Source: a virus
Taxonomy: Duplodnaviria > Heunggongvirae > Uroviricota > Caudoviricetes
Length of the DNA stretch: 64,000 nt
Direction: 5' to 3' (one strand)
Virus record (IMG/VR): IMGVR_UViG_3300032038_000006
The notes beneath the pieces were generated by a model that saw only the letters and a program-made list of their open reading frames with translations, did no database searches and was not told the DNA's origin. The stretch's first letter is position 1, and each line of letters starts with the position of its first letter. The translations under genes and the position numbers were made by a program. Positions 18,653-59,516 of the stretch are shown piece by piece.

Positions 18653-18729
18653 CGGCGAGTAGCGCAACAGGCAGAGGCAATGGACTTAAAATCCATTCAG
18701 TGTGGGTTCGAATCCCATCTCGCCGACCA
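18653..18729 (+). tRNA. tRNA with anticodon TAA (Leu-decoding) in a type I body
   Basis: Stem ATGGA/TCCAT; loop CTTAAAA; A73. Confidence 0.55.
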
Positions 18730-18807
18730 TGGGGCATTAAGTGCGTGATAATTTTGGTGATTGGTTATCTTGTAGCGCCCCTAAAATCACCATTTAAATC
18801 GGGGATT

Positions 18808-18884
18808 AGCTCAGTTTGGTAGAGCGCTCGCCTTGGGAGCGAGAGGCCGTGGGTTCGAGTCCCGCATCTCCGACCAGATAAGAC
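18808..18884 (+). tRNA. tRNA-Pro(TGG)
   Basis: Loop CTTGGGA. Confidence 0.8.
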
Positions 18885-18944
18885 TCAGCAGCAACTCTGA
18901 AAGTTTTTTGGGCATATAAAAACACAAGATGAGTCTTGATAAAT

Positions 18945-19031
18945 CGGCGTGTGGCGGAATTGGCAGACGCGCCAGCCTAAGGAGCTGGTGTCCTTCGGGA
19001 CGTGTGGGTTCGAGTCCCACCATGCCGACCA
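18945..19031 (+). tRNA. tRNA-Leu(AAG), type II
   Basis: Loop CTAAGGA; variable arm GTCC-TTCG-GGAC. Confidence 0.65.
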
Positions 19032-19187
19032 GAGAATACGTGCGACCACATATAGCGGTCTGTGGTGCCGCGGCACGTATTATCACCACTAAGACAGTCC
19101 AGCAATTCTTTAAAAGCATTTGAATTTTAATCAAAAGGTAGCTAACATAACTGTCTTGAATATTTGAATATAAAGGAGAGATTAACC

Positions 19188-19706
19188 GTGATTACCGAGA
19201 AGATATTTACTCGTGGTAATGGTGAGAAGGTTCGTTATTCACAGATAGGCTCTATTGTAGCCGACTACATCGCAAAGGCACCTAATGCCTCATACGAAAT
19301 AACTGTGGGTACAGATAGCCAGAACCACAAGTGCACAAGAATGGTGGAAGTAATTGCTGTTCACCGTATCGGTGATGGCGGCATTTTCTTCTATCGCAAG
19401 CAAGATATACCAAAGATAAGAGTTCTTAAGACTAAGATACAGGAAGAGACTTCTCGTTCTATTGAGAACGCAACAGGTTTCGTAGACGCTCTTGCTTATG
19501 CTCTTATCGACTATGATATTGACCTTGAGCAAATGTCTAATGACGGAAGATTTACTTTCGCTGTCCACGCTGACATTGGTCACGCAGGTAAGACAAATCA
19601 GCTTATTACTGAGATTACCTCTTGGATTAAGACTTGTGGCTTCGAGGTTGCTATCAAGCCAGATAGCTACGCTGCATCTGGTATCGCAAACAGAATTACA
19701 AAGTAA
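19188..19706 (+). CDS. hypothetical protein (GTG start) inside the tRNA array
   Basis: RBS GGAGAG. Confidence 0.45.
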   Translation: MITEKIFTRGNGEKVRYSQIGSIVADYIAKAPNASYEITVGTDSQNHKCTRMVEVIAVHRIGDGGIFFYRKQDIPKIRVLKTKIQEETSRSIENATGFVDALAYALIDYDIDLEQMSNDGRFTFAVHADIGHAGKTNQLITEITSWIKTCGFEVAIKPDSYAASGIANRITK

Positions 19707-19846
19707 CGAATATCGAGGGAAGGGCATAGTAAATTAAATACTGAGATAGTAGAAATACGTAGCGAAGGTGCTTAATTTACGCTGGTAAGGAAAGTAAGTA
19801 GTGGGTTGCCTATATTCGTTATCATAAATTTTCGGAGGGCGGCACA

Positions 19847-20077
19847 ATGGAAAGAGATAGAGCATACTATCGTTATCAGAGAAGACAACACATAGCTCGC
19901 AAGAGACATATCATTGATGAAACTCATCATTGGTTTTGTGATTGCGACGGAAAGTTAGCCAAAGGTAAAATTCATTGTTCCTGCTGGATGTGTGCCTTCA
20001 ATCATCCTAAGAGTGGCTGGAAGCAGGTTACATATTCCGATATGAAAAGAATTGAAAAGCTTGATTACTCTGAATAG
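19847..20077 (+). CDS. small Cys/His-rich (zinc-binding) protein
   Basis: RBS GGAGGG. Confidence 0.4.
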   Translation: MERDRAYYRYQRRQHIARKRHIIDETHHWFCDCDGKLAKGKIHCSCWMCAFNHPKSGWKQVTYSDMKRIEKLDYSE

Positions 20078-20181
20078 GAGTATCTGGCTGCTTAATAGGG
20101 ACTACACGTTGTTCTTGTAGTTTAAAAGAAGGAAAGAGTCGCTCTCTTGAAATCAAAGGATACGCCCAACCCTATTTCAAT

Positions 20182-20258
20182 GCCGACATAGCCCAATTGG
20201 TAGAGGCGATAGCCTTAGGAGCTATTCAGTTAGGGTTCGAATCCCTATGTCGGCACCA
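20182..20258 (+). tRNA. tRNA with anticodon TAG (reads CUA/CUG, Leu) in a type I body
   Basis: Stem ATAGC/GCTAT; loop CTTAGGA; A73. Confidence 0.55.
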
Positions 20259-20406
20259 TCGGGTTTCGGATATGGGTTAGGGCACGAGAGGTTTCGCGAA
20301 CCTTAAGGTCTTTACTCCGAAGAAAATACCTCGAAAGAGGAACTGCGAGTACTTGACTCCGATAAGCATACCCGAACCAATTAAAGACTCTTCAGCAATA
20401 TTCCTT

Positions 20407-20480
20407 TCCAGAATAGACAAAGTGGCTAAGTCATACGACCTAAAATCGTACATATGGGGGTTCGAGTCCCCCTTCCGGAC
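20407..20480 (+). tRNA. tRNA-like, anticodon TAA, no encoded CCA
   Basis: T-arm GGGGG-TTCGAGT-CCCCC; acceptor carries one mismatch. Confidence 0.35.
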
Positions 20481-20506
20481 CGCAAGGTATAGAGAGTCTT
20501 GATAAT

Positions 20507-20582
20507 CTCGGTTTAACTCAGCGGCGAGAGTGTCTCCCTTACAAGGAGAAAGTCATAGGTTCGAGTCCTATAACCGAGACCA
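20507..20582 (+). tRNA. tRNA-Val(TAC)
   Basis: Loop CTTACAA. Confidence 0.75.
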
Positions 20583-57567: not shown

Positions 57568-57825
57568 ATGGAAGATATGAAGGTATTTCTGGTAGAAGAT
57601 TGCGATTGTGAGTATCGCGTCTTCGTTCATTTTGAAGATGCTCTCAAGTATGCAATCCAGCAGATTGAGGAGTCTAAGAATGACACTGAGACTAAGATGG
57701 AGATGTACAAGGAGCTTGTAATGTCTGTCGCTAATAGAGACGCTTCCGTATGGGGACAGGGCTTCTCAATTGATGAGTTCCTTTGGTGCTGGCGCATTGA
57801 CTTGTTTGCAGGGGAGGCTAAGTAA
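57568..57825 (+). CDS. hypothetical protein
   Basis: ORF. Confidence 0.4.
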   Translation: MEDMKVFLVEDCDCEYRVFVHFEDALKYAIQQIEESKNDTETKMEMYKELVMSVANRDASVWGQGFSIDEFLWCWRIDLFAGEAK

Positions 57826-57983
57826 TGGAAAAGGTTTATGTAGTTGAAGGACAGGGAAGAGATACTGGTGCATGGACCATACTCAACATCTTCAAAAATT
57901 ATCCCTCGGCTGTAAAGTATGCTCAGGCTATGGAGCAGGACGAATGGGTAGTCAGAATAAGAACTTGGCAGGTGAATGACTAA
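57825..57983 (+). CDS. small hypothetical protein
   Basis: Overlapping TAATG. Confidence 0.3.
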   Translation: MEKVYVVEGQGRDTGAWTILNIFKNYPSAVKYAQAMEQDEWVVRIRTWQVND

Positions 57984-58144
57984 TGTGTAACGTAATCGGA
58001 TTCAGCTCATATGACAGATTCGAGAGAGTTATCCTCGGCGGCGTTTCCTATGAGGACGCTCGAAACTTTATAGAGAGATATAGAGGGGTCTATGTTGATG
58101 CAACTGGCTTTAGCTGGTATCTTCAGATAGTCGACGCCTACTAA
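57983..58144 (+). CDS. small hypothetical protein
   Basis: Overlapping TAATG. Confidence 0.3.
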   Translation: MCNVIGFSSYDRFERVILGGVSYEDARNFIERYRGVYVDATGFSWYLQIVDAY

Positions 58145-58163
58145 GAGATAAACAAAAAGAAAT

Positions 58164-58192
58164 TTGACTTTTTTCATATTTTATGTTATAAT
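58164..58192 (+). promoter_or_regulatory. sigma70-like promoter
   Basis: TTGACT n17 TATAAT. Confidence 0.65.
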
Positions 58193-58226
58193 ATATATAG
58201 AAAATGAGGAAAGGAAATGAAAAAGA

Positions 58227-58382
58227 ATGAAAGATTTCAAGTGTACTGACTGCGGATATTTCTGGAAGGAATATCCTGAAGCGAGACCATCTTGCCATTG
58301 GGTGTCAAGATGTCCTGATGATTTTCCTCCCTGTGAAGAGGAAGAGTACGAAAACCCTGACTGTGACCCTGAGTGGGCGTAA
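58227..58382 (+). CDS. small zinc-ribbon protein
   Basis: CTDCG...C..C. Confidence 0.35.
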   Translation: MKDFKCTDCGYFWKEYPEARPSCHWVSRCPDDFPPCEEEEYENPDCDPEWA

Positions 58383-58392
58383 GGAGGATACT

Positions 58393-58674
58393 ATGACAAG
58401 AGAAAGCTTTGAAAGAGCAAAGGAACTCGATGAGAGAATCGCTGATACTAAGACAAGAGTAAATGCTCTCCTTACAAGAATGGGAGCTGGACCTTCTGGA
58501 GTAAAAGTTGACCACATTAAGCTCTCTGGCTATACTGATGAAGAGGGCGGCACCAGACTTCCTGAGAGATTCGTCGGAATCCCTGAAGAGGTCGGCGTTA
58601 AGATAGTTGCATTACTCAGAGACTATTACAGCAAGGAGCTTGCAGAGCTTCAGGCAGAATGGGAGGCACTTTAA
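58393..58674 (+). CDS. hypothetical protein
   Basis: RBS AAGGAGGA. Confidence 0.4.
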   Translation: MTRESFERAKELDERIADTKTRVNALLTRMGAGPSGVKVDHIKLSGYTDEEGGTRLPERFVGIPEEVGVKIVALLRDYYSKELAELQAEWEAL

Positions 58675-58916
58675 TGGAAAAGATAACTGAAGTTTACATC
58701 GTTCACTATGTGAACGCTTGGGAGATTGATGTCTGTGCCTCTCCTGAGGCGGCAGAACAGAAAGGTAGAAGTTACCTTCAGGAAATCGCCACTGAGTTCA
58801 CTAAGGAAGAGTTCGACCTCATAGTCGCTGAGTTTGAAAACTCTCTGAGAGAATATGAGGGCGCCTTCTCTGTTGAAGACGTAATGTGGGTTGAAATTCA
58901 GCCTCTTATCTACTAA
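58674..58916 (+). CDS. hypothetical protein
   Basis: ORF. Confidence 0.4.
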   Translation: MEKITEVYIVHYVNAWEIDVCASPEAAEQKGRSYLQEIATEFTKEEFDLIVAEFENSLREYEGAFSVEDVMWVEIQPLIY

Positions 58917-58935
58917 GAAAGAACAAAAGAAAAAT

Positions 58936-58964
58936 TTGACTTTTTTTATAAAATATGATATAAT
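58936..58964 (+). promoter_or_regulatory. sigma70-like promoter ahead of the 450-nt ORF-free region
   Basis: TTGACT n17 TATAAT. Confidence 0.65.
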
Positions 58965-59439
58965 ATTTATAGAAAAGGTTGAGGAAAGAAAATAAAAAGC
59001 GGTACACGGTTCGGTACGGTTTCTGAGTTCTCCGCTATATAAATGTGAAGTAATTGTAACCGATTGACATAGACCAGCCTTAGGTTGCTTGAGATACAGC
59101 AGGGGTAGGGCATCGCAGATGAGCGTGTGTGGTTGGGAAGAGACGAAATCCGCTGACCACTAAAGTTCTCCGACTGCAAGAGGTACGGCGGCAGAACTGA
59201 AAGGCGATTAATAAATTGACGGGGCAGCGGCTTTTAGGAGAATTTTCCTGCGTTTAGTGGAAAACAACCTTTCTACCTTTGGTTGACGGTGACTGGATAG
59301 TGGAACCGTTACCTCACTTTTAAATGGGGATTGGCAGAGGTCAGTATCTCGGGGAGTGTTTCAATGGAAATCTCCTGAGCCGCCGTTGAAAGAAACGGTC
59401 GAAGCGGGTTCCAACTCCCGTAGTCTCCACCAATTAAAT

Positions 59440-59516
59440 GTGGTTATGATGCAACTGGCAGACATCTTCGGCTAAGAACCGAAGTCTTGAGAGTTCGAAT
59501 CTCTCTAACCGCACCA
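59440..59516 (+). tRNA. tRNA with anticodon AAG in a type I body
   Basis: Stem CTTCGG/CCGAAG; loop CTAAGAA. Confidence 0.5.

What the first reader, a model, noticed from the sequence alone, without database searches (positions are those of the whole stretch)
18653..59516. Leucine-reading anticodons carried on type I (short variable arm) tRNA bodies
tRNAs with anticodons TAA (18653, 20407), TAG (20182), CAA (20866) and AAG (59440) fold as type I cloverleafs with 4-5 nt variable loops, mostly with A73. The genome also has a conventional type II tRNA-Leu(AAG) at 18945. Bacterial tRNA-Leu is otherwise type II. Either the host LeuRS accepts these (A73 is the main E. coli determinant), or they are charged with another amino acid, which would cause mistranslation of Leu codons, or they act as decoys for tRNA-targeting nucleases.
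Basis: seen in the sequence. Interest (0 to 1): 0.6.

Follow-up and report, generated by a model that had tools for sequence, protein, structure and literature searches.

The report
Phage leucine tRNAs lacking long arm
A large phage carries four leucine tRNAs that lack the long extra arm usual in bacteria but keep the features the leucine-charging enzyme reads; the same short form is common in other phages and in actinobacteria, so it is real but not unique.

Summary
ARAGORN and Rfam both call five 74-77 nt tRNAs with Leu anticodons and 4-5 nt variable loops, plus one type II tRNA-Leu(AAG) at 18945.

Four of them (18653, 20182, 20866, 59440) look like genuine tRNA-Leu without the long arm:
- They keep the tRNA-Leu D arm: a 3-bp stem (2 bp in 18653) and an 11-nt loop with G18G19 in the same register.
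- They keep the published E. coli LeuRS identity set: U8:A14, A15-U48, G18G19, A20a, the T loop and A73.
- In related phages the same gene slots switch between short and long forms.

The short form is widespread. It also occurs in 85 GenBank Felix O1-like phage records and in many actinobacterial genomes. A type I tRNA-Leu of Streptomyces coelicolor has been shown to be leucylated.

Most likely these four are leucine-charged decoders. I found no support for mistranslation or a decoy role.

The fifth gene (20407) is different: C33, no encoded CCA, found only in this phage clade, and its structure is conserved by compensatory changes. Its role is unresolved.

An anti-defence reason for losing the arm is plausible but untested. 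Verdict: new member of a known kind, moderate interest.

The parts
18653..18729 (+). tRNA-Leu(UAA), type I, 77 nt with encoded CCA. A9, C13, variable region UCAGU, A73. The D stem has only 2 Watson-Crick pairs (G12.G23 mismatch).
   Evidence: ARAGORN. Rfam tRNA 54.8 bits. Matches the pattern. Its nearest body in the window is the type II Leu at 18945. Leu log-odds -2.1, reached by 2 of 146 non-Leu tRNAs. The syntenic slot holds a type II gene in L002 (93 nt) and L003 (85 nt).
18945..19031 (+). Conventional type II tRNA-Leu(AAG), 87 nt, D arm GCG-GAAUUGGCAGA-CGC, A73, CCA. It serves as the internal reference for the Leu body.
   Evidence: ARAGORN. Rfam 52.9 bits. The syntenic Leu(AAG) in L003 is type I, 77 nt.
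20182..20258 (+). tRNA-Leu(UAG), type I, 77 nt. D arm UAGCCCAAUUGGUAGAGGC, variable region UCAGU, G37, A73, CCA.
   Evidence: Rfam 63.2 bits. Matches the pattern. The D arm and variable loop are near-identical to Felixounavirus Leu(UAG) (L142) and to actinobacterial tRNA-Leu(UAA). Leu log-odds -3.1, reached by 4 of 146 non-Leu tRNAs. The syntenic slot is 83 nt in L002 and 77 nt in L003.
20407..20481 (+). Atypical tRNA-like gene with a UAA triplet at the anticodon position. Loop CCUAAAA (C32, C33), U20a instead of A20a, C73, no encoded CCA, A4.C69 mismatch. Not filed as a tRNA-Leu.
   Evidence: Rfam 46.9 bits. Outside the window it occurs in only three IMG/VR contigs, all of this phage clade. 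There are 10 two-sided compensatory pair changes against the L268 copy, with an identical loop. Leu log-odds -18.1, reached by 16 of 146 non-Leu tRNAs.
20866..20942 (+). tRNA-Leu(CAA), type I, 77 nt. It has the same D-arm register as tRNA-Leu, but 13-22 forms a U-A pair, so it is drawn as a 4-bp stem with a 9-nt loop. A20a, U48, A37, A73, CCA.
   Evidence: Rfam 67.2 bits. Its nearest body in the window is the type II Leu at 18945. Leu log-odds +5.6, reached by 1 of 146 non-Leu tRNAs. The syntenic slot (between His and Phe) is type I in L002 and type II, 87 nt, in L003.
59440..59516 (+). tRNA-Leu(AAG), type I, 77 nt. G9, C13, D arm AUG-CAACUGGCAGA-CAU, variable region GUCUU, A37, A73, CCA. It is a second AAG isoacceptor alongside the type II copy.
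   Evidence: Rfam 43 bits. Matches the pattern. Leu log-odds +24.5, inside the type II Leu range of 6-48 and reached by 0 of 146 non-Leu tRNAs. The flanking DNA of L029 is 96% identical and carries a Leu(AAG) of 77 nt at the same place.

Best explanation
Four of the five genes (18653 UAA, 20182 UAG, 20866 CAA, 59440 AAG) are functional phage tRNA-Leu isoacceptors of the type I (short variable loop) form. They have lost only the long variable arm, which bacterial LeuRS of the E. coli type does not read. They keep everything it does read: U8:A14, the A15-U48 Levitt pair, G18G19 and A20a in an 11-nt D loop on a 3-bp D stem (2 bp in 18653), the U54-A58/U55/C56 T loop, and A73.

They are therefore most likely leucylated by the host LeuRS. 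Together with the type II Leu(AAG) they would decode all six Leu codons of this roughly 181-kb phage.

They belong to a large family of short tRNA-Leu also found in Felix O1-like, Enterococcus, Streptomyces and mycobacterial phages and in Actinomycetota genomes.

What is shown: the fold, the identity elements, the Leu specificity of the D arm, conservation with covariation, switching between type I and type II among related phages, and the wide distribution.

What is inferred: actual charging with leucine, and any selective reason for losing the arm.

The fifth gene (20407) is a separate, clade-restricted tRNA-like RNA of unknown role.
For: 1. Fold. ARAGORN and Rfam agree on complete cloverleaves with 4-5 nt variable loops.

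2. Identity set. A review of tRNA identity (PMC9976931) states that for E. coli tRNA-Leu, A73 is crucial but the anticodon and the long arm are not. A15-U48, G18G19 and A20a are essential, as are the G18:U55, G19-C56 and U54:A58 contacts. [quoted passage not shown] All of these elements can be read directly in the four genes.

3. Leu specificity of the D arm. The motif AAYWGGNAKA in register occurs in 25 of 53 type II Leu tRNAs. It occurs in only 2 of the roughly 1,500 non-Leu tRNAs from the same loci, both odd Gln(CUG) calls.

4. Pattern scan. All were called short tRNA-Leu (UAG 48, UAA 33, CAA 22, AAG 10, CAG 5 among 118 unique sequences) and none Phe.

5. Unimposed conservation. In 115 unique phage sequences, U8 (115/115), U48 (114/115) and A73 (114/115) are conserved although the pattern did not require them. 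The 20 stem pairs are 90-100% paired; 19 of them show 3-6 pair types each and G53-C61 is invariant.

6. Log-odds score of type II Leu body against non-Leu body, with the anticodon and variable region excluded: 59440 +24.5, 20866 +5.6, 18653 -2.1, 20182 -3.1. Other window tRNAs score -34 to -68. Only 0, 1, 2 and 4 of 146 non-Leu tRNAs reach these values.

7. Switching. The syntenic Leu slots switch between type I and type II in relatives L002 and L003. In L003 a type II Leu(UAA) and a type I Leu(AAG) share the acceptor 5' strand and nearly the whole D arm.

8. Synthetase constraint. Ser (123 of 124) and Tyr (57 of 57) stay type II in the same loci. I read this as expected if synthetase recognition limits which tRNAs can lose the arm, since established knowledge is that SerRS and bacterial TyrRS use the long arm.

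9. Codon use matches the tRNA set. CUU and CUC make up 62% of Leu codons and there are two AAG genes; UUA makes up 21%.

10. Precedents. S. coelicolor type I tRNA-Leu(CAA), variable loop ACAGC, is leucylated by its own LeuRS and by human mitochondrial LeuRS (PMC6614811). tRNAscan-SE ranks Leu as the top isotype for the three Leu tRNAs of phage Sf14 (PMC12482277). Sf14's Leu(UAG) is 97% identical over all 77 nt to the Felixounavirus type I gene, which shares the D arm and variable-loop signature of window gene 20182.
Against: - No charging data exist for any phage type I tRNA-Leu.
- E. coli LeuRS failed to leucylate the S. coelicolor type I tRNA-Leu(CAA) transcript in vitro (PMC6614811). Acceptance by a non-actinobacterial LeuRS is therefore not guaranteed. 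That tRNA has C48 whereas the phage genes have A15-U48, so the result may not transfer; this is my inference.
- The host is unknown. GC of 0.37-0.43 argues against an actinobacterial host, so its LeuRS cannot be examined.
- 18653 and 20182 score slightly below zero in my log-odds test, mainly because of A9 and C13. They are closer to Leu than 97-99% of non-Leu tRNAs, but they are not inside the type II Leu range.
- The Sf14 Leu(UAG) isotype score beats the next models only narrowly (67.4 against 65.7 and 63.4).
- 18653 has a weakened D stem.
- My reference sets come from phage-rich loci, not from a curated bacterial tRNA set.
Confidence: 0.78

Rival explanations
1. Adaptive counter-defence. 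This is a reading of why the arm was lost and is compatible with the best explanation. Removing the long variable arm takes away the handle that class II-specific or variable-loop-directed host immune effectors use. The phage's tRNA-Leu would then stay intact and chargeable when host type II tRNA-Leu is attacked.
For: - Retron-Eco7 (PtuAB) and Septu cleave the variable loop of host tRNA-Tyr, and T5 tRNA-Tyr resists because its variable loop differs (PMC13096335; PMC11555353).
- The abortive-infection toxin AbiEii, like MenT3, appears to prefer class II tRNAs with long arms (bioRxiv 10.64898/2026.01.19.700257).
- The window is otherwise equipped against tRNA damage: a polynucleotide-kinase-like ORF (11775-12698), two RNA ligases (29695-30627 and 41245-42375, the latter PF09511), a near-complete tRNA set and a tmRNA.
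- The short form is found in phages whose hosts, by established knowledge, have only type II tRNA-Leu: E. coli, Salmonella and Shigella.
- Type I and type II copies of the same anticodon (AAG) coexist in the window.
Against: - No effector is cited that targets the variable arm of tRNA-Leu specifically.
- Neutral loss is sufficient, because LeuRS does not need the arm.
- Actinomycetota carry the same short form in their own genomes, where escape from host defence cannot be the reason.
- Switching in both directions among close relatives fits drift as well as selection.
Confidence: 0.25
2. Mischarging. The short bodies are charged with an amino acid other than leucine, so Leu codons are mistranslated during infection.
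For: - Loss of the arm makes them resemble type I tRNAs.
- UAA and CAA share A35 and A36, plus A73, with tRNA-Phe.
- E. coli LeuRS did not charge one actinobacterial type I tRNA-Leu.
- 14 of the 26 tRNAs of phage Sf14 show an isotype-model mismatch, though its Leu tRNAs do not.
Against: - The D arm is specific to Leu and the full LeuRS identity set is retained.
- Across 118 unique IMG/VR sequences this body never carries a Phe anticodon, although the pattern allowed one.
- No other synthetase's main determinants are present. This is my inference from the identity sets reviewed in PMC9976931: position 35 is A, which excludes Lys, Tyr and Gln; position 34 is not G, which argues against Phe; there is no G3:U70.
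- The tRNA set matches the phage's own Leu codon use, so mistranslation would damage the phage's own proteins.
Confidence: 0.04
3. Decoys or non-translational tRNA mimics. The genes act as baits for tRNA-targeting nucleases, or as partners of the neighbouring Ro60-like protein, rather than as decoders.
For: - 20407 has C33, lacks A20a and an encoded CCA, and is strongly conserved in structure.
- The same cluster contains two Y RNA-like (YrlA-like) permuted tRNA mimics next to a DUF2828/Ro60-like gene.
- Authors of a Bas63 study suggested that some annotated tRNAs beside its Ro60-like gene may be Y RNAs (PMC11482910).
Against: - The four canonical genes have normal 7-nt anticodon loops with U33, an encoded CCA and A73.
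- They form a set that covers all the Leu codon boxes.
- A bait for nucleases aimed at type II tRNA-Leu would be expected to keep the arm, not lose it.
Confidence: 0.05
4. Decaying pseudogenes. These would be type II tRNA-Leu copies that lost their arm by deletion and are no longer functional.
For: - 18653 has a weakened D stem.
- Phage tRNA clusters do contain fragments and pseudogenes; one is annotated in Felixounavirus locus L142.
Against: - Rfam scores are 43-67 bits.
- Across 115 unique sequences the stems are paired in 90-100% of sequences with extensive covariation.
- Variable-region lengths are bimodal: 5 nt or 11-17 nt, with few intermediates.
- The form is conserved across distant phage families and hosts.
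Confidence: 0.03

Closest known systems
Streptomyces coelicolor type I tRNA-Leu(CAA) (Fan et al. 2019, NAR; PMC6614811)
   Same: A bacterial-type tRNA-Leu with a 5-nt variable loop (ACAGC, against UCAGU in 18653 and 20182). [quoted passage not shown] U8:A14 matters for charging, and five nucleotides is the minimum workable variable-loop length.
   Different: It is chromosomal, in a high-GC actinobacterium. It has C48 rather than U48. A73 is not an identity element for ScoLeuRS. E. coli LeuRS does not charge it. The window genes are phage-borne at about 40% GC, carry A15-U48 and A73, and come as several isoacceptors (UAA, UAG, CAA, AAG).
Type I tRNA-Leu genes of Felix O1-like phages (Ounavirinae: Felixounavirus, Mooglevirus, e.g. 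vB_EcoM-LTH02, Sf14, Moogle, wV8)
   Same: Phage tRNA clusters in which tRNA-Leu is 74-76 nt plus CCA. They share the D arm UAGCCCAAUUGGYAGAGGC, the variable loop YCAGU and A73. A Ro60-like/DUF2828 gene sits next to the tRNA cluster in Bas63, a Felixounavirus, and about 120 Escherichia phage records carry homologues of the window's DUF2828 protein.
   Different: In vB_EcoM-LTH02 all three Leu genes are type I, whereas the window keeps one type II copy. The hosts are enterobacteria. There is no DNA similarity outside the tRNAs. In the literature I searched, the short arm of these annotated genes is not discussed.
Type I tRNA-Leu(UAA) of Actinomycetota genomes
   Same: The same architecture and near-identical D arm and variable loop (GCCCCNAUAGCCCAAUUGGCAGAGGC...CAGU). 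It is found in Nocardia, Gordonia, Mycobacterium, Rhodococcus, Arthrobacter, Bifidobacterium and others.
   Different: These are single genes (82 of 124 matches have no other tRNA within 8 kb), some on complete chromosomes. They usually lack an encoded CCA and are mostly the UAA isoacceptor.
Animal mitochondrial tRNA-Leu and engineered minimal E. coli tRNA-Leu lacking the variable arm
   Same: Both show that leucylation does not need the long arm. A73, A14 and the D/T-loop elbow are enough (PMC9976931).
   Different: Mitochondrial tRNAs are charged by a dedicated LeuRS and have degenerate cores. The minimal tRNAs are laboratory constructs.
Phage tRNAs that escape tRNA-targeting defences (T5 tRNA-Tyr against retron-Eco7/Septu; anticodon-loop variants, van den Berg 2023)
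   Same: Phage-encoded copies of a host tRNA that differ exactly where a nuclease acts. For tRNA-Tyr that site is the variable loop.
   Different: In those cases resistance was demonstrated. For tRNA-Leu no such nuclease or resistance has been shown, and the resemblance is only a lead.

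Membership tests
Bacterial tRNA-Leu as recognised by E. coli-type LeuRS | Discriminator A73 | tested here: met
   A73 is present in 18653, 20182, 20866 and 59440. It is not met in 20407, which has C73 in the window and in L265, and A in L264 and L268. A73 is present in 114 of 115 phage type I Leu sequences although the search pattern did not require it. The requirement is taken from PMC9976931.
Bacterial tRNA-Leu as recognised by E. coli-type LeuRS | U8:A14 and the A15-U48 Levitt pair | tested here: met
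   All five have U8, A14, A15 and U48. U8 is present in 115 of 115 and U48 in 114 of 115 family members, neither imposed by the pattern. For comparison, A15, U48 and A73 occur together in 211 of 1,262 non-Leu type I tRNAs.
Bacterial tRNA-Leu as recognised by E. coli-type LeuRS | G18G19 and A20a in an 11-nt D loop on a 3-bp D stem, that is the alpha/beta register of class II tRNA-Leu | tested here: met
   The register is met in 18653, 20182, 59440 and 20866 (in 20866 with an extra U13-A22 pair), although 18653 has only 2 Watson-Crick pairs in the stem. 20407 has U20a. In register, the motif is found in 25 of 53 type II Leu tRNAs and in only 2 of the roughly 1,500 non-Leu tRNAs.
Bacterial tRNA-Leu as recognised by E. 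coli-type LeuRS | T-loop partners U54-A58, U55 and C56 | tested here: met
   The T loops are UUCGAAU or UUCGAGU in all five.
Bacterial tRNA-Leu as recognised by E. coli-type LeuRS | Actual aminoacylation with leucine | not testable with these tools
   This needs charging assays. The only biochemical data are for S. coelicolor tRNA-Leu(CAA), which is charged by ScoLeuRS and human mitochondrial LeuRS but not by E. coli LeuRS.
Class II (type II) tRNA | Long variable arm (stem-loop, 10 nt or more in the variable region) | tested here: not met
   The variable regions (positions 44-48) are 5 nt in all five. Only 18945 has a 15-nt region with a 4-bp stem.
Type I tRNA-Leu family (S. coelicolor CAA type, actinobacterial UAA and phage copies) | Leu anticodon, 5-nt variable region and a Leu-type D arm; subgroup signature A9, C13 and NCAGU | tested here: met
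   18653 and 20182 carry A9, C13 and UCAGU. 59440 (G9, C13, GUCUU) and 20866 (G9, U13, AUUCU) are closer to arm-deleted type II genes. S. coelicolor's loop is ACAGC.
Canonical elongator tRNA (applied to 20407) | U33 and a 7-nt anticodon loop, a usable 3' end and a paired acceptor stem | tested here: not met
   The loop is CCUAAAA with C33 in all four clade copies. No CCA is encoded, although almost all other tRNAs in the window encode it. The window copy has an A4.C69 mismatch.
   tRNAscan-SE was not available. A substitute log-odds score gives 59440 +24.5 (inside the Leu range), 20866 +5.6, 18653 -2.1 and 20182 -3.1, all far above non-Leu tRNAs (median -42). 20407 scores -18.1. Published tRNAscan-SE scores for the Sf14 Leu tRNAs, which are of the same short type, rank Leu first.

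The most novel reading that the evidence does not exclude
Loss of the long variable arm in phage tRNA-Leu is not neutral. It would be a recurrent counter-defence adaptation. By shedding the one structural feature that marks class II tRNAs, and that LeuRS alone among the class II synthetases does not need, phages would make a leucine decoder invisible to host immune effectors that recognise or cut the long arm (PtuAB/Septu-type nucleases, AbiEii/MenT-type nucleotidyltransferases, possibly Schlafen-type RNases). The type I/type II mixture and rapid switching in this clade would then be a record of that arms race.
Probability: 0.22. Interest if true: 0.7.

Novelty: new member of a known kind. Interest (0 to 1): 0.38.

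Why it matters
The common statement that tRNA-Leu is type II everywhere except animal mitochondria does not hold for phages or for Actinomycetota. Short tRNA-Leu genes are common in phage tRNA clusters, including well-studied E. coli, Salmonella and Shigella phages, yet the literature I could search does not discuss this.

For annotation, Leu-anticodon tRNAs of 74-77 nt in phage genomes should not be flagged as mismatches or taken as evidence of recoding.

For biology, the finding provides a natural test of LeuRS recognition. E. coli LeuRS is reported not to charge an actinobacterial type I tRNA-Leu, yet E. coli phages carry only the short form.

It also gives a cheap, testable hypothesis about evasion of defences that target class II tRNAs. 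Tractable systems are at hand: Bas63, Felix O1 and Sf14 on E. coli, Salmonella and Shigella.

Tried and rejected
- Megablast of the tRNA cluster against GenBank phages found nothing. Relatives had to be found through the DUF2828 protein and a second ORF.
- Whole-body similarity within the window and BLAST against all fetched tRNAs were weak tests. Acceptor stems dominate the first, and the second database is enriched for type I Leu by construction. I replaced them with a register-based motif count and a log-odds score trained only on type II Leu from outside the clade.
- I considered building covariance models for the isotype test. I used position-specific scores instead, because all the sequences fall into one gap-free register.
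- I looked for 20407-like genes across IMG/VR. Of 8 matches, 4 were chance hits that are not tRNAs. The other 4 include a second locus on each of the L001 and L002 contigs, so there are three distinct clade contigs besides the window. I could not assign 20407 a role.
- I rejected the idea that 20407 is a Glu-like body. Its G18G19 register is Leu-like in the window, but its ortholog in L002/L268 has a 10-nt D loop.
- I rejected an actinobacterial host. GC is 0.37-0.43, and the best protein matches are to human faecal phage contigs and Bacillus phages.
- Literature searches for phage type I tRNA-Leu returned nothing specific. The papers on Sf14, on anticodon-loop evasion and on bacterial Schlafens do not mention the short arm.
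- One script call printed nothing.
- Enrichment in phages relative to bacteria could not be quantified, because both collection scans stopped at 120 rows.

Full report
**1. What is in the window**

The window is part of a contig of about 181 kb (ENA ERZ27256903 k141_101128). It belongs to a large phage.
- It carries 46 tRNA genes and a tmRNA, all on the + strand, in three clusters at 15.7-21.4 kb, 51.0-55.4 kb and 59.4-60.7 kb.
- It also carries a polynucleotide-kinase-like ORF, two RNA ligases and a DUF2828/Ro60-like ORF.
- GC is 0.37-0.43.
- It has no close DNA relative among GenBank phages.

**2. The observation**

ARAGORN and Rfam agree on five Leu-anticodon tRNAs with 4-5 nt variable loops:
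- 18653 (UAA)
- 20182 (UAG)
- 20407 (UAA)
- 20866 (CAA)
- 59440 (AAG)

They also agree on one 87-nt type II tRNA-Leu(AAG) at 18945. The five are 73-74 nt before the CCA, so no long arm can be folded from them. Four have A73 followed by CCA.

**3. What the bodies are**

Three of the five (18653, 20182, 59440) have an 11-nt D loop reading N-A-A-Y-W-G-G-N-A-K-A. That is the same architecture as the type II Leu at 18945 (GAAUUGGCAGA). The D stem has 3 bp in 20182 and 59440 and 2 bp in 18653. 20866 has the same register with an extra U13-A22 pair.

According to the Giege and Eriani review (PMC9976931), the E. coli leucine identity set is:
- A73
- U8:A14
- the A15-U48 Levitt pair
- G18G19 and A20a
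- the G18:U55, G19-C56 and U54:A58 contacts

The same review says that neither the anticodon nor the long arm is needed, and that variants lacking both arms are still charged. All of these elements can be read in the four genes.

The D-arm motif in register is specific to Leu. It occurs in 25 of 53 type II Leu tRNAs. It occurs in only 2 of the roughly 1,500 non-Leu tRNAs taken from every locus I fetched, and both are odd Gln(CUG) calls.

I built a log-odds score contrasting type II Leu bodies from outside this phage clade (30 sequences) with non-Leu type I bodies (146 sequences). The anticodon and the variable region were excluded.

| tRNA or set | Score | Non-Leu tRNAs reaching it (of 146) |
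|---|---|---|
| 59440 | +24.5 | 0 |
| 20866 | +5.6 | 1 |
| 18653 | -2.1 | 2 |
| 20182 | -3.1 | 4 |
| 20407 | -18.1 | 16 |
| other window tRNAs in this register | -34 to -68 | not applicable |
| type II Leu, leave-one-out | 6 to 48 | not applicable |
| non-Leu, cross-validated | median -42 | not applicable |

The small deficit of 18653 and 20182 comes from A9 and C13. Leaving out those two columns gives +7.4 and +6.4.

**4. Relatives and evolution**

The DUF2828 protein retrieved syntenic tRNA clusters from IMG/VR contigs at 98%, 81% and 74% protein identity (L001, L002, L003). The same gene slots switch form between these relatives.

| Slot | Window | L002 | L003 |
|---|---|---|---|
| Leu(UAA) | 77 nt | 93 nt | 85 nt |
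| Leu(AAG) | 87 nt | absent | 77 nt |
| Leu(UAG) | 77 nt | 83 nt | 77 nt |
| Leu(CAA) | 77 nt | 77 nt | 87 nt |

In L003 a type II Leu(UAA) and a type I Leu(AAG) share the acceptor 5' strand and all but one base of the D arm. The arm is therefore gained or lost on a short evolutionary time scale within one tRNA-Leu gene family.

Variable-region lengths across all Leu tRNAs I collected are bimodal: 5 nt or 11-17 nt. In the same loci Ser (123 of 124) and Tyr (57 of 57) remain type II. I read this as the arm being lost only where the synthetase can do without it.

**5. Distribution**

I wrote a pattern for the Leu-type D loop, any NAR anticodon and a short variable region.
- In the window it matches the three expected genes, against 0.00 expected by chance.
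- In IMG/VR it filled the 120-locus limit.
- All 129 matches there are called short tRNA-Leu, and none carries a Phe anticodon.
- 110 of the 118 unique sequences have A73.
- In 115 unique sequences the 20 stem pairs are 90-100% paired. Nineteen show 3-6 pair types each; G53-C61 is invariant.
- U8, U48 and A73 are near-invariant in those sequences although the pattern did not impose them.

The same pattern filled the limit in bacterial genomes. Most of those hits are single tRNA-Leu(UAA) genes of Actinomycetota, some on complete chromosomes (Nocardia, Herbiconiux). Their D arm and variable loop are almost identical to those of 20182. The remainder are tRNA arrays in other phyla.

Cultured phages have the short form too.
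- Felixounavirus vB_EcoM-LTH02 has three tRNA-Leu genes, all type I.
- Its Leu(UAG) is present at 95% identity or more in 85 GenBank records. These include Sf14, Moogle, wV8 and phages isolated on E. coli K-12.
- A type I Leu was confirmed in Enterococcus phage EFGrKN.
- BLAST matches point to similar genes in Streptomyces, Bacillus, Erwinia and mycobacterial phages, but I did not check those individually.

**6. Literature**

The only paper in the searchable library that uses the phrase "type I tRNALeu" is Fan et al. 2019. It shows the following:
- S. coelicolor tRNA-Leu(CAA), variable loop ACAGC, is leucylated by ScoLeuRS and by human mitochondrial LeuRS.
- It is not leucylated by E. coli LeuRS.
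- Five nucleotides is the minimal workable length for the variable loop.

The Sf14 paper lists tRNAscan-SE isotype scores in which Leu is the top model for all three Sf14 Leu tRNAs. It does not mention the variable loop. Papers on phage tRNAs and host defences do not discuss the short arm either. The phage distribution therefore appears to be annotated in databases but not described.

**7. Mechanism**

For four genes the most likely reading is ordinary decoding. They are transcribed within the tRNA clusters, carry an encoded CCA and are leucylated by the host LeuRS through A73 and the D/T elbow. They then read Leu codons.

The tRNA set fits the phage's codon use. CUU and CUC account for 62% of Leu codons and there are two AAG genes; UUA accounts for 21%. 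Charging itself is inferred, not shown.

The main caveat is the E. coli LeuRS result on the Streptomyces tRNA. That tRNA has C48, whereas the phage genes keep A15-U48, which the E. coli enzyme requires. Whether the result transfers is therefore unknown.

**8. Why the arm might be lost**

Neutral loss is sufficient. An adaptive reading is plausible for three reasons:
- AbiEii and MenT3 prefer class II tRNAs.
- This phage invests heavily in tRNA repair and replacement.

No effector is known for the arm of tRNA-Leu, and actinobacteria have the short form in their own genomes. I give this reading about 0.2-0.25.

**9. The fifth gene**

20407 should not be grouped with the others.
- Its loop is CCUAAAA (C33).
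- It has U20a and C73, and no encoded CCA.
- Outside the window it occurs in only three IMG/VR contigs, all of this clade.
- Its four stems differ from the L268 copy by 10 two-sided compensatory changes, while the loop is identical.

It is a functional RNA of unknown role. A non-decoding role cannot be excluded.

**10. Verdict**

The four genes are new members of a known kind, type I tRNA-Leu, which turns out to be widespread in phages.

Interest is moderate. The result corrects a textbook generalisation and yields a testable anti-defence hypothesis, but it does not reveal a new mechanism.

Noticed in passing
window 20946-21068 and 21155-21276 (+): Two Y RNA-like (YrlA-like) elements. In each, the 5' and 3' ends pair into a terminal stem. 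That stem encloses a permuted tRNA-like module: a T arm, an acceptor stem closed by a small loop, and a D arm.

Rfam YrlA matches 20994-21050 at 33.7 bits, E 3e-5, which is below its gathering score. Fold z-scores are -1.6 and -3.2.

The second element reads ...ACAGU-T arm-CUCCCCG-ACCA-UUAU-CGGGGAG-UA-GCCCAAGUUAGCAGAGGC, so it looks derived from a type I tRNA-Leu.

Both lie about 1 kb upstream of the DUF2828/Ro60-like ORF.
   Followed up: partly
window 22162-23643 (+): An ORF of 493 aa in the DUF2828/TROVE (Ro60-like) family (phrog_850). It sits directly downstream of the first tRNA cluster. Homologues occur in 707 GenBank phage records, about 120 of them Escherichia phages. The same pairing of a Ro60-like gene with a tRNA cluster was noted for Bas63 (PMC11482910).
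   Followed up: partly
window, e.g. 18134-18230, 29627-29680, 42981-43042, 43887-43955, 50411-50494, 51206-51291, 51831-51905, 52602-52672, 53110-53167, 58141-58226, 58915-58998: A repeated intergenic module of about 55-90 nt, present more than 15 times in the window and shared with relatives L003 and L015.

Separately, around several tRNAs the spacer starts AUAAGRNNNUCAGCA after the CCA and ends NGUCUUGAUAAU just before the next tRNA, and the two ends can pair (sequence, folds). This could be a processing or promoter/terminator module. I did not test whether it is the same element as the repeat.
   Followed up: no
window 11775-12698, 29695-30627, 41245-42375 (+): A polynucleotide kinase/phosphatase-like ORF and two RNA ligases: an Rnl2-like ORF (phrog_548) and a T4 Rnl1-like ORF (PF09511). 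Together they make a tRNA-repair toolkit of the kind T4 uses against anticodon nucleases.
   Followed up: partly
window 51300-51390 and 51992-52077 (+): tRNA-Cys(GCA) of 91 nt and a second tRNA-Asn(GUU) of 86 nt, both drawn with long variable arms. This is the reverse anomaly to the finding: type II-like bodies on anticodons that normally sit on type I tRNAs. Long-armed Ile, Asn and Cys tRNAs also occur in other fetched phage loci.
   Followed up: no
window 17015-17090 and 17094-17170 (+): Two adjacent CUA (amber suppressor) tRNAs, conserved in relatives. TAG ends only 6 of 84 long + strand ORFs. Relative L015 also has a UUA (ochre) suppressor. This may indicate stop-codon recoding or read-through.
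   Followed up: partly
window 18945, 59440, 51045, 51122, 60581 (+): tRNAs with A at position 34 for Leu(AAG, two genes), Arg(ACG), Thr(AGU) and Ser(AGA). From general knowledge, bacteria normally have A34 (read as inosine) only in tRNA-Arg(ACG). This raises the question of which deaminase, if any, acts on the others.
   Followed up: no
window 47800-48143 (+): A phage-encoded tmRNA with tag peptide ADYAIAA* (ARAGORN; Rfam 92 bits).
   Followed up: no
window, many tRNAs (e.g. 18456, 18653, 18800, 18945, 20866, 51741, 53693, 53995, 59728, 60094): An unusually large share of the tRNAs start with C1-G72 (Leu, Lys, Glu, Tyr as well as Pro). Nearly all of the window's tRNAs encode their CCA.
   Followed up: no
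L084 2864 and L141 7068: Two tRNAs called Gln(CUG) carry the Leu-type D arm in register (GGGGAAYUGGCAGACCC) on a short body. They may be Leu-derived bodies with a Gln anticodon, or miscalled.
   Followed up: no
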